Below are positions 40,614-41,326 of a stretch of 51,251 nt of DNA, piece by piece. The DNA comes from a virus. Its lineage: Duplodnaviria > Heunggongvirae > Uroviricota > Caudoviricetes. The translations under genes were made by a program, and so were the position numbers. The DNA lies in IMG/VR virus record IMGVR_UViG_2870495154_000004, positions 1 to 51,251 of that record; one strand, written 5' to 3'. The notes below the pieces were generated by a model. It saw nothing but the letters and a program-made list of their open reading frames with translations. It was not told where the DNA came from and did no database searches. How positions within the stretch are numbered: position 1 is the first letter of the stretch; each line of letters begins with the position of its first letter.

Positions 40614-41003
40614 TCAGGCGGCTGCACCCGCCGGTTTCTCATACTTACTGATAGTGATCTCGACCTTCCCTTCCGGGATAACCGGTCCCCACTCCACCAG
40701 CATTCTTTTCACCTGACTGTCGTCTTCCCACACCCCCGCGTGGGTCAGGGCGTCAAACAGCGCCTTGTTATAGTTGTCCAGATCGCGGATCCGGTTATCC
40801 GGAGGAAACAACACGATCTCCACTGAAGCAGGTGCCGACGTTGGTTTCGGCAGACGACGTAACTGCTCAACTATTGCTGCGCACGCCGCGCTCTGGAATT
40901 TTCGCCCCGCCGCGCTTATCAGACTCTTACCAGCAAACGCCCCTTTGTTGGGGTGTCGCCAGTACGTGTTCACGCTGGGCGGGAAAGGCAGGATCAGCTT
41001 CAT
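40614..41003 (-). CDS. rusA: Holliday junction resolvase RusA
   Basis: LPFPPSVNTYWRH...DLDNYNKALFDALTHAGVWEDDSQV matches RusA family. Confidence 0.85.
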   Translation of the reverse strand: MKLILPFPPSVNTYWRHPNKGAFAGKSLISAAGRKFQSAACAAIVEQLRRLPKPTSAPASVEIVLFPPDNRIRDLDNYNKALFDALTHAGVWEDDSQVKRMLVEWGPVIPEGKVEITISKYEKPAGAAA

Positions 41004-41326
41004 ACTTTCAGGCCCCTCTCATGTAACCAGTGGGCTGCACGCAGCCTGGCGTTTTCCTCACCGACAAGCAGTGAGCGGATAATCCCGACCGCCTCGCTGT
41101 CGTCGTCCTTCACCGCGGTATGAAGCGTGATGCCCCGGGCCACGCCACGCTTTATCGTGATGACGCCTTTTTTCTCCAGTGCGCGAAGATGCTCTACCGC
41201 TGCATTCACTGAACGGTATCCCAGCATGGTTGCCACCTCCTGATTGGTTGGCGGAAAGCCACGCTCTTTCTGATAAGAAATCAGCATATCCAGCACCTGC
41301 TGCTGGCATTGAGTTAACGTCGTCAT
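41000..41326 (-). CDS. LexA N-terminal DNA-binding-domain-like protein (no peptidase domain)
   Basis: [53 protein letters not shown] parallels the LexA winged-HTH; ORF ends about 108 aa; start overlaps upstream stop. Confidence 0.5.
   Translation of the reverse strand: [108 protein letters not shown]

What the first reader, a model, noticed from the sequence alone, without database searches (positions are those of the whole stretch)
41000..41326. LexA DNA-binding-domain-only protein encoded in the replication region
The ORF parallels the LexA N-terminal winged helix (QQVLDML...[34 protein letters not shown]) but stops after about 108 aa with no S24 peptidase domain. Such a protein could occupy SOS boxes without being RecA-cleavable, or act as a phage regulator using the LexA fold. 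Its start overlaps the upstream stop.
Basis: partly seen in the sequence, partly recalled or inferred. Interest (0 to 1): 0.45.

Follow-up and report, generated by a model that had tools for sequence, protein, structure and literature searches.

The report
Prophage LexA DNA-binding-domain-only protein
A lambdoid prophage of E. coli encodes a small, well-conserved protein that is a copy of the DNA-binding head of the SOS repressor LexA without the self-cleaving tail; the gene is real, common and already annotated, but nobody has yet shown what DNA it binds or why the phage carries it.

Summary
Window 41000-41326 (minus strand) encodes a 108-aa protein. Residues 1-68 are a full LexA winged helix: Pfam PF01726 E=2.9e-19, 51% identical to E. 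coli LexA, and the model superposes on the LexA-DNA crystal structure at 1.3 A. It has no S24 peptidase domain; a family-specific 34-residue helical hairpin follows instead.

Four of LexA's five base-contacting residues are kept (S39, N41, A42, E45; E44 is V), as is the wing. The gene is under strong purifying selection (pN/pS 0.09). It is translationally coupled to its neighbours (PerC-like yfdN, rusA) in the early-right operon of a prophage at tRNA-Thr/proA.

It is not new as an object. RefSeq names it "LexA family transcriptional regulator", PHROGs has it as family 362, and it is orf42 of phage SfV. It occurs in 2232 of 5426 complete E. coli genomes. I found no experimental study.

The closest characterised analogue is GIL01 gp6, which has a changed recognition helix; this protein does not.

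Best reading (about 0.4): a RecA-insensitive occupant of SOS-type operators, host or phage-borne, made during lytic growth.

One lead: a strong SOS box in the first codons of a late-operon DNA methyltransferase co-occurs with the gene.

The parts
41000..41326 (-). CDS of the 108-aa LexA-DBD-only protein (WP_000210173.1, 'LexA family transcriptional regulator').
   Evidence: ORF list and sequence. Pfam PF01726 E=2.9e-19. PHROG 362 full-length match, E=5.4e-59. RefSeq annotation in a 100% identical genome. pN/pS 0.09.
41123..41326 (-). Codons 1-68: winged helix-turn-helix, with helices at 6-22, 28-35 and 40-52 and a beta-hairpin wing at 56-68.
   Evidence: AF2 model. Foldseek best hits are the LexA-DNA complex 3JSO/3JSP, rmsd 1.3 A over 67-69 residues at 49-51% identity. 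phmmer to the LexA NTD 1LEA, E=7e-16.
41168..41212 (-). Codons 39-53: recognition helix [15 protein letters not shown]. E. coli LexA has SPNAAEEHLKALARK.
   Evidence: Alignments. LexA contact residues S39, N41, A42, E44, E45 as listed in PMC3091678. Four of the five are identical.
41018..41104 (-). Codons 75-103: family-specific helical hairpin (helices 75-87 and 93-103). It follows a low-confidence linker at residues 69-75. It is the presumed dimerisation or partner-binding module.
   Evidence: AF2 secondary structure and pLDDT. Conserved hydrophobic positions I82, I83, L86, L87, A93, A97, W100, L101. No Pfam or PDB sequence match. The dimerisation role is inference.
41326..41820 (-). Upstream gene yfdN (PerC family). 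Its TAA stop shares one base with the ATG of the LexA-like gene.
40614..41003 (-). Downstream gene rusA (Holliday-junction resolvase). Its ATG overlaps the LexA-like stop (ATGA). It is the immediate downstream neighbour in nearly all E. coli-type loci.
41817..42758 (-). O-like replication initiator (HTH_36; PHROG 391), in the same operon.
43919..43947 (-). PR-like promoter match between the cI-like repressor (43990-44616, +) and cro (43692-43892, -). It is the probable source of the transcript that carries the LexA-like gene.
   Evidence: A consensus match only, plus gene order. No promoter match lies closer to the gene. Inference.
36761..36780 (-). Strong SOS box TACTGTAAAAATAAACAGTG, in codons 3-9 of the late-operon DNA methyltransferase (CDS 35736-36788). 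It is a candidate phage-borne site for host LexA and for the LexA-like protein.
   Evidence: Exact CTGT-N8-ACAG match. PSSM score 22.5 bits, within the range of authentic boxes. Conserved in SfV, cdtI and mEp460, and in a lineage with only 77% methyltransferase identity. Co-occurrence with the gene.
8925..8944 (.). Second strong SOS box (TACTGTTTTTATATACAGCG on the + strand), in the tail-fibre accessory region. On the minus strand it is followed by GGGAGG and a 25-30 codon ORF.
   Evidence: Relation to the finding is unknown.

Best explanation
The gene encodes a small sequence-specific DNA-binding protein descended from a proteobacterial LexA. It has the whole LexA winged helix, a short flexible linker, and in place of the S24 peptidase and dimerisation domain a two-helix hairpin of its own.

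It is made from the early-right (PR) operon during lytic growth, by translational coupling with yfdN and rusA.

Because the base-contacting residues and the wing of E. coli LexA are retained, it most likely recognises CTGT-type half-sites with the LexA spacing, that is, SOS boxes. It would bind as a dimer held by the hairpin or by wing contacts on the DNA.

Lacking a catalytic domain and a conserved cleavage site, it is insensitive to RecA*. It could therefore occupy SOS operators when host LexA has been destroyed, or keep them occupied during infection. These operators include the host regulon and phage-borne boxes such as the one at the start of the late-operon methyltransferase.

Shown: the gene is real, its fold, its domain composition, residue conservation, operon position and distribution.

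Inferred: dimerisation through the hairpin, the operator sequence, repression, and the benefit to the phage.
For: Domain and fold:
- PF01726 matches full length, E=2.9e-19, with no S24 domain.
- 51% identity to E. coli LexA over residues 1-68.
- The model superposes on the LexA-DNA complex 3JSO at 1.3 A.

Specificity determinants:
- S39, N41, A42 and E45 are identical to LexA (residue list from PMC3091678).
- The wing I56, I58, G61, R64, G65, I66 is conserved. The wing is credited with fixing LexA's rigid spacer (PMC8565304).
- By contrast GIL01 gp6, which binds a non-SOS site, has a rewritten recognition helix, SHKTAHRYL.

Constraint:
- In the winged helix pN is 0.001 against pS 0.11.

Expression context:
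- One-base and four-base overlaps with the neighbouring genes, and no nearer promoter match than the PR-like site.

No obligatory phage operator:
- 24 of 54 close loci have no strong SOS box within 10 kb on either side.
- No other conserved CTGT palindrome was found outside coding sequence. This points to targets that are always available, namely the host regulon.

Phage-borne boxes exist where expected for a box binder:
- Two boxes of 22-23 bits lie in this window.
- The methyltransferase box accompanies the gene in 66 of 70 IMG/VR loci and in 28 of 29 phage records.
Against: No binding data exist, and I found no paper on this family.

E44, one of the five listed contact residues, is V in every close relative. 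More distant subfamilies vary positions 42-46, so specificity is not uniform across the family.

The hairpin's role as a dimeriser is untested, because only a monomer could be modelled. pTM is 0.54 and the linker is disordered. An isolated LexA NTD is a weak binder (my own knowledge of the LexA literature).

The one characterised phage LexA-DBD-only protein, gp6, is an activator with its own operator.

The co-occurrence with the methyltransferase box can be explained by linkage within one phage lineage. Most carriers of the gene lack that box.
Confidence: 0.4

Rival explanations
1. It is a phage-specific transcription factor with its own operator, as GIL01 gp6 is. It would switch on or time a phage promoter, for example expression of Q, the late operon or an accessory gene, and would have no role at host SOS boxes.
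For: The precedent is gp6, a LexA-NTD-only protein encoded after the replication genes that activates the late promoter at a non-SOS palindrome. The gene always sits 1-2.5 kb upstream of DUF968 and Q, even in distant phages where rusA is not adjacent. Subfamilies differ in recognition-helix positions 42-46. E44V is fixed.
Against: Unlike gp6, four of five LexA contact residues and the wing are retained. Scans of about 1.4 Mb of related loci for CTGT/ACAG palindromes of any spacing from 0 to 20 found only coding-sequence repeats. Late genes here already have a Q antiterminator.
Confidence: 0.25
2. Its relevant targets are the phage's own LexA-controlled sites: the box in the first codons of the late-operon methyltransferase, the DinI promoters and the immunity-region boxes. 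It would replace host LexA there after induction, or compete with it during infection of undamaged cells, tuning methyltransferase or late-operon expression. Effects on the host regulon would be incidental.
For: The methyltransferase box scores 22.5 bits. It is conserved in SfV, cdtI and mEp460, and in a lineage whose methyltransferase is only 77% identical. 66 of 70 methyltransferase loci and 28 of 29 phage records with the methyltransferase also carry the LexA-like gene, although at least five different Q cassettes lie between the two. The association is asymmetric: the methyltransferase almost never occurs without the gene, while the gene often occurs without the methyltransferase.
Against: Only 15 of 54 carriers have the methyltransferase, and 24 of 54 have no strong box within 10 kb. 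mEp390-type relatives mostly lack any box. The two loci are 4-8 kb apart in one lineage, and exchange of the Q cassette by flanking homology would preserve both ends. No promoter that the box could control was identified (read).
Confidence: 0.2
3. It does not act mainly through DNA. The hairpin tail would bind a protein partner such as RusA, the DUF968 nuclease, host LexA or RecA*. Or the tail would mimic LexA's cleavage region as a pseudo-substrate for S24 peptidases.
For: There is tight translational coupling with rusA across subfamilies. One natural fusion joins a LexA-type winged helix to a DUF968 C-terminal domain (P0157). Most close alleles read LLAGEE where LexA has VAAGEP, and the TIGR00498 alignment runs to position 91.
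Against: The winged helix is the most constrained part of the protein, with pN 0.001. rusA is not adjacent in Klebsiella phage ST846 or in Edwardsiella phage EPP-1, and is not annotated after the gene in SfIV. The fusion is a single sequence on a single contig. The A-G dipeptide is V-G in this window and is absent from distant subfamilies. BLASTP finds no significant similarity beyond residue 68.
Confidence: 0.08
4. It is a decaying remnant of a captured lexA gene with no present function.
For: It looks like a truncated lexA. Many fragmentary or fused ORF calls exist in databases.
Against: pN/pS is 0.09, and 84 of 85 distinct alleles are intact. The exact protein is seen on at least 1000 contigs. 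Homologues at 40-50% identity keep the same length and position. The gene is present in functional phages such as SfV, cdtI, mEp460 and Stx2c phages.
Confidence: 0.02

Closest known systems
E. coli LexA repressor (N-terminal domain; PDB 1LEA, 3JSO)
   Same: The same winged-helix fold, 51% identity over 68 residues, rmsd 1.3 A. Four of five base-contact residues and the wing are conserved.
   Different: It has no S24 peptidase and dimerisation domain, no Ser119/Lys156 and no conserved Ala-Gly cleavage site. A 34-residue helical hairpin takes their place. It is phage-encoded and sits in an early lytic operon.
GIL01 (Bam35-like tectivirus) gp6, a LexA-NTD-only activator of the late promoter P3 (PMC6182141)
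   Same: A small phage protein made of PF01726 alone, encoded just after the replication gene in the early operon. It binds DNA without being RecA-cleavable.
   Different: There is no BLASTP-detectable similarity, so the two appear to be independent derivations. gp6 is 66 aa with no tail. Its recognition helix is rewritten (K38, R42, Y43) and it binds GaCACA..TGTGaC rather than the host box. The protein here keeps the host LexA contact residues and carries an extra hairpin.
PHROG 362 / SfV orf42 / Stx-phage 'pham 237' (LexA family transcriptional regulator, pfam01726)
   Same: The same family. There is a full-length HMM match. It is 96-99% identical to the genes in SfV, cdtI, mEp460, Ayreon and Stx2c/Stx2a phages. 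It is listed without study in PMC8136144.
   Different: None. This is the family it belongs to, and the label 'transcriptional repressor' is an annotation, not a tested function.
Non-cleavable LexA (Ind-) mutants and the LexA 1-84 autocleavage fragment
   Same: By architecture the protein resembles the N-terminal cleavage product, which retains operator binding. Functionally it would behave like a LexA that RecA* cannot remove (my own knowledge of the LexA literature).
   Different: It is a separate, phage-borne gene with its own C-terminal module. It ends in ...ERGLKV rather than the ...VAA end of the LexA 1-84 fragment, which, from my recollection of the LexA literature, is what marks that fragment for ClpXP degradation.

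Membership tests
LexA repressor proper (NCBIfam TIGR00498 equivalog) | N-terminal LexA-type winged helix-turn-helix (PF01726) | tested here: met
   PF01726 matches positions 1-65 of 65, E=2.9e-19. Structural match to 3JSO at 1.3 A.
LexA repressor proper (NCBIfam TIGR00498 equivalog) | C-terminal S24 peptidase and dimerisation domain with the Ser-Lys dyad | tested here: not met
   The protein ends at residue 108 and has no PF00717 hit. TIGR00498 matches only profile positions 1-91 of 203, at 67.8 bits against a cut-off of 110.95.
LexA repressor proper (NCBIfam TIGR00498 equivalog) | Conserved Ala-Gly autocleavage site | tested here: not met
   The aligned position is V88-G89 in this window and A-G in many alleles. 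It is VE, TR, DD, AE or AD in distant subfamilies. There is no catalytic domain to cleave it in cis.
PHROG 362 (phage LexA-DBD protein with C-terminal hairpin; SfV orf42 family) | Full-length profile match, about 106 aa | tested here: met
   E=5.4e-59, residues 1-108 against profile positions 1-106 of 106.
PHROG 362 (phage LexA-DBD protein with C-terminal hairpin; SfV orf42 family) | Position in the nin-like region of lambdoid phages, between the replication genes and rusA/DUF968/Q | tested here: met
   Window gene order. The same order is seen in about 90 related loci and in SfV, cdtI, mEp460 and mEp390.
GIL01 gp6-type late-gene activators | Small phage protein consisting of PF01726 only, encoded in the early operon | tested here: met
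   Here there is an added 34-residue tail.
GIL01 gp6-type late-gene activators | Detectable sequence relationship to gp6 | tested here: not met
   BLASTP finds no alignment with E<=100.
GIL01 gp6-type late-gene activators | Diverged recognition helix that binds a phage-specific palindrome at the late promoter and activates it | tested here: inconclusive
   The helix is not diverged from host LexA. No conserved phage palindrome was found. Activation cannot be tested by computation.
SOS-box-binding proteins (functional class) | Specific binding to CTGT-N8-ACAG operators | not testable with these tools
   There is only indirect support: conserved contact residues and wing.

The most novel reading that the evidence does not exclude
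About 40% of E. coli genomes carry, in lambdoid prophages including Stx2c and Stx2a converting phages, a RecA-proof SOS repressor. Once the prophage is induced or a cell is infected, this protein would re-close the host SOS regulon and the LexA-controlled switches of rival prophages and colicins. It would also act with an SOS box built into the phage's own late operon (the methyltransferase start codons) to time late gene or methylase expression.
Probability: 0.25. Interest if true: 0.65.

Novelty: new member of a known kind. Interest (0 to 1): 0.35.

Why it matters
If the protein does bind SOS boxes, a very common prophage gene would dampen or reshape the E. coli SOS response. It is present in 2232 of 5426 complete genomes, with up to four copies per genome, and occurs in Shiga-toxin phages. 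That would bear on mutagenesis, on antibiotic-induced prophage and toxin induction, and on competition between co-resident prophages. It would also show that phages have turned a host LexA head into a regulator at least twice, in opposite ways: gp6 with a changed specificity and this family with a retained one. If it binds a private operator instead, it is one more small phage regulator of ordinary interest. Either way the question can be settled with a gel shift and a reporter assay.

Tried and rejected
1. Search for a phage operator. I counted CTGT-Nx-ACAG for x = 0-20 in 80 mEp390-type loci (1.43 Mb). The apparent excesses at spacings 1, 6 and 15 were single coding-sequence repeats inside yfdN or inside the gene itself, or were scattered. 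Rejected as operators.

2. A universal phage SOS box. A PSSM scan found strong boxes in only 17 of 83 distant loci and in 30 of 54 close loci. An SOS box is therefore not an obligatory partner.

3. Obligatory pairing with RusA. Adjacency holds in E. coli-type loci. It fails in SfIV, Klebsiella phage ST846 and Edwardsiella phage EPP-1.

4. Rosetta-stone fusion with DUF968 (P0157). It is a single sequence on one contig and is probably a deletion.

5. The tail as a LexA cleavage-site mimic, or as a relic of the LexA C-terminus (AVGIIRS against AVGVIRN). The match has E=0.39, and the A-G is not conserved.

6. Homology of the tail to a known domain. None was found in Pfam or the PDB.

7. Defence-system membership. 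PADLOC gave only a weak generic winged-helix hit.

8. Technical dead ends. The search for related loci with the divergent alignment A3 failed for lack of a conserved stretch. The LexA-DNA structure paper (Zhang et al. 2010) is not held, so the contact residues are cited second-hand. A dimer could not be modelled, because only window or database sequences may be submitted.

Scores are therefore indicative only, but the two top sites also match the exact consensus core.

Full report
WHAT IS THERE

The window matches the chromosome of E. coli strain CREC-532 at 100% identity. It contains a lambdoid prophage integrated next to tRNA-Thr and proA.

The finding is an ORF on the minus strand, 41326 down to 41000, encoding 108 aa. 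Its ATG shares one base with the TAA stop of the upstream PerC-family gene yfdN (TAATG). A GGGGG Shine-Dalgarno lies 5-9 nt upstream. Its TGA stop overlaps the ATG of rusA (ATGA).

The gene order on the minus strand is: cro, ymfL, DUF4222, O-like initiator, yfdN, LexA-like, rusA, KilA-N, DUF968, Q. The only promoter-like match on that strand upstream of the gene is the PR-like site between the cI-like repressor and cro. The gene is therefore most simply a delayed-early gene of the rightward operon. That is inference.

DOMAIN AND STRUCTURE

- Pfam LexA_DNA_bind covers residues 1-65 end to end, E=2.9e-19. No peptidase S24 domain is present.
- The NCBIfam lexA equivalog matches only its first 91 of 203 positions and scores below its cut-off.
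- BLASTP against E. coli LexA gives 35 identities in 68 residues and nothing significant after residue 68.
- An AlphaFold2 model (mean pLDDT 79.6) shows three helices and a beta-hairpin wing (residues 1-68), a disordered linker (69-75), and two further helices (75-87 and 93-103).
- Foldseek puts the LexA-DNA complexes 3JSO and 3JSP first, at rmsd 1.3 A and 49-51% identity.
- The two-helix tail matches nothing in Pfam or the PDB. It is nonetheless conserved in pattern (I82, I83, L86, L87, A93, A97, W100, L101) down to relatives of 40-50% identity.
- A 34-residue hairpin with one hydrophobic face per helix is too small to be stable alone. I infer that it pairs with a second copy, as in wHTH regulators with C-terminal helical dimerisation modules, which appear as weak full-length structural neighbours. 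Alternatively it binds a partner. A dimer could not be modelled here.

DNA-CONTACT RESIDUES

The residues of E. coli LexA that contact DNA are given as Ser39, Asn41, Ala42, Glu44 and Glu45 (PMC3091678). The phage protein has S39, N41, A42, V44 and E45. Within the close family, S39 and N41 are invariant and E45 is nearly so.

The wing is conserved in length and in I56, I58, G61, R64, G65 and I66. The wing is credited with the contacts that give LexA its rigid half-site spacing (PMC8565304).

The only characterised phage protein of this architecture is GIL01 gp6. It binds a site different from the host box, and its helix is rewritten: SHKTAHRYL against the Bacillus LexA pattern. The residues argue for a CTGT-type half-site, with E44V as the one fixed difference.

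A REAL, CONSTRAINED AND VERY COMMON GENE

- Among 85 distinct full-length alleles collected from related loci, pN/pS is 0.09. The winged helix is almost frozen (pN 0.001, pS 0.11). The tail is looser (pN 0.021, pS 0.065).
- The gene is found at 2854 places in 2232 of 5426 complete E. coli genomes, with up to four copies per genome.
- This exact protein is on at least 1000 contigs, under the RefSeq name 'LexA family transcriptional regulator'.
- It is PHROG 362.
- It occurs in SfV (orf42), SfII, SfIV, cdtI, mEp460, Ayreon, and Stx2c and Stx2a converting phages.
- It is listed among Stx-phage regulators as a pfam01726 'pham' without study (PMC8136144).
- BFVD holds many other viral LexA-DBD-only proteins of 65-150 aa, from tailed phages, tectiviruses and a mycobacteriophage. 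An exhaustive search also turned up proteins with two LexA heads in tandem.
- None of the nine literature searches I ran returned an experimental paper on this family.

WHERE COULD IT BIND?

I looked for a phage-borne operator in three ways.

First, CTGT/ACAG palindromes of any spacing in 1.43 Mb of mEp390-type loci gave only repeats inside coding sequence.

Second, I built an SOS-box weight matrix from E. coli operators recalled from memory, so its scores are indicative. It finds two sites in the window that score like authentic boxes.
- Site 8925-8944 scores 23.4 bits.
- Site 36761-36780 scores 22.5 bits.
- The next best site scores 10.8 bits.
- A threshold of 12 bits is reached 0.7 times on average in shuffled sequence. 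Both sites also match the exact consensus core.

Third, I examined the 36761 site. It lies in codons 3-9 of a DNA methyltransferase. That gene sits in the late operon between the Q/tR' region and the lysis genes.
- The same box is at the same place in SfV, cdtI and mEp460.
- It survives, with a changed right arm, in a lineage whose methyltransferase is only 77% identical.

In the phage collection this methyltransferase 5' region occurs in 29 records. 28 of them are also in the LexA-like list. In IMG/VR, 66 of 70 methyltransferase loci with enough upstream sequence carry the gene, although at least five different Q cassettes lie between the two.

The reverse does not hold.
- Only 15 of 54 carriers with enough downstream sequence have the methyltransferase.
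- 24 of 54 have no strong box within 10 kb on either side.
- In complete genomes the gene is more than twice as frequent as the methyltransferase.

The link is thus a lead, not a demonstration. The two loci are 4-8 kb apart in one lineage. Cassette exchange through flanking homology would keep both ends together.

MECHANISM

I commit to the following, at about 0.4. The protein is a RecA-insensitive LexA-type operator binder made during lytic growth. It recognises SOS-type boxes as a dimer and so represses whatever lies behind them. That means the host regulon, and phage-borne boxes where present, at a time when host LexA is absent or under threat.

Possible benefits, all speculative:
- silencing rival LexA-controlled prophages and colicin lysis genes;
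- limiting SOS functions that slow replication;
- timing the methyltransferase or late operon.

RIVALS

- A gp6-like private regulator: 0.25.
- A protein whose relevant sites are only the phage's own boxes: 0.2. This overlaps with the main model.
- A protein-binding role for the tail, with RusA, DUF968, LexA or RecA*: 0.08. It is weakened by the extreme constraint on the DNA-binding head, by the non-universal rusA adjacency, by the singleton nature of the DUF968 fusion, and by the non-conserved Ala-Gly.
- A dead remnant: 0.02. It is contradicted by the selection analysis.

COMPARISON AND NOVELTY

The protein works like a LexA head but fails two of the three defining features of LexA proper. 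It is a member of PHROG 362. It is an analogue, not a detectable sequence relative, of gp6.

As an object it is already annotated. As a mechanism it is untested. I therefore file it as a new (uncharacterised) member of a known kind, the phage LexA-DBD-only regulators.

Interest is moderate, at 0.35. The finding is ordinary as annotation. The combination of retained SOS-box determinants, very high prevalence, presence in Stx phages and the methyltransferase-box association makes it a cheap and worthwhile experiment.

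Noticed in passing
window 36761-36780 (within CDS 35736-36788, minus strand): A near-consensus SOS box (TACTGTAAAAATAAACAGTG) occupies codons 3-9 of a late-operon type II-like DNA methyltransferase. It is conserved in SfV, cdtI, mEp460 and Stx2c phages, and in a lineage with 77% methyltransferase identity. I could not identify the promoter it would control.
   Followed up: partly
window 8925-8944 and 8831-8923 (minus strand): A second strong SOS box lies 30 bp after a 275-aa gene of no known family in the tail-fibre accessory region. On the minus strand it is followed directly by GGGAGG and a hydrophilic 25-30 codon ORF (MLRHVDVLSLATHAINDLRKDDKDG). This may be a small SOS-induced gene or the relic of one.
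   Followed up: partly
window 36939-37142 (minus strand): A 67-aa ORF lies between the late terminator and the methyltransferase and has no Pfam match. By eye, its sequence (…VTPRMMTRTTGVSEARCQLILTQLVLAGLAKDNGG…) looks like another small winged-helix protein. It travels with the methyltransferase in SfV (orf47), cdtI (orf55) and mEp460.
   Followed up: no
window 37543-38406 (plus strand): A NYN-domain gene (PF01936, E=1.4e-9) lies on the opposite strand between Q and the late promoter region. A hairpin that looks like a bidirectional terminator sits at about 38385-38415. It may be a moron or a defence gene.
   Followed up: no
proteins P0130, P0132, P0148, P0151, P0152, P0154, P0158: These proteins carry two LexA_DNA_bind domains in tandem and no peptidase (140-350 aa; Pfam confirmed for P0130, P0154 and P0148). 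They would be single-chain 'dimers' of the LexA head. Their origin is unknown.
   Followed up: partly
protein P0157 (240 aa): This is a fusion of a LexA-type winged helix to the C-terminal DUF968/HNH-like domain, the domain that lies downstream of the LexA-like gene in these phages. It is a single sequence on a single 402-kb contig and is probably an in-frame deletion.
   Followed up: yes
L101 (mEp460) 31970; IMG/VR loci L186, L190, L194 and others, at 2.9-4.5 kb upstream of the gene: Very strong SOS boxes (TACTGTTTTTA[T/C]ATACAGTA, 26-27 bits) lie in the immunity region of about a quarter of the carriers. In mEp460 the box falls inside the annotated S24 repressor CDS (31506-32153).
   Followed up: no
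window 1-8000 (L002 22800-31001): The start of the window, beyond the tail-fibre remnants, holds unrelated cargo. This includes an FRG-domain protein, several hypothetical genes, a small HTH regulator and a truncated DUF3987 gene. It suggests a second, decayed mobile element abutting the prophage.
   Followed up: no
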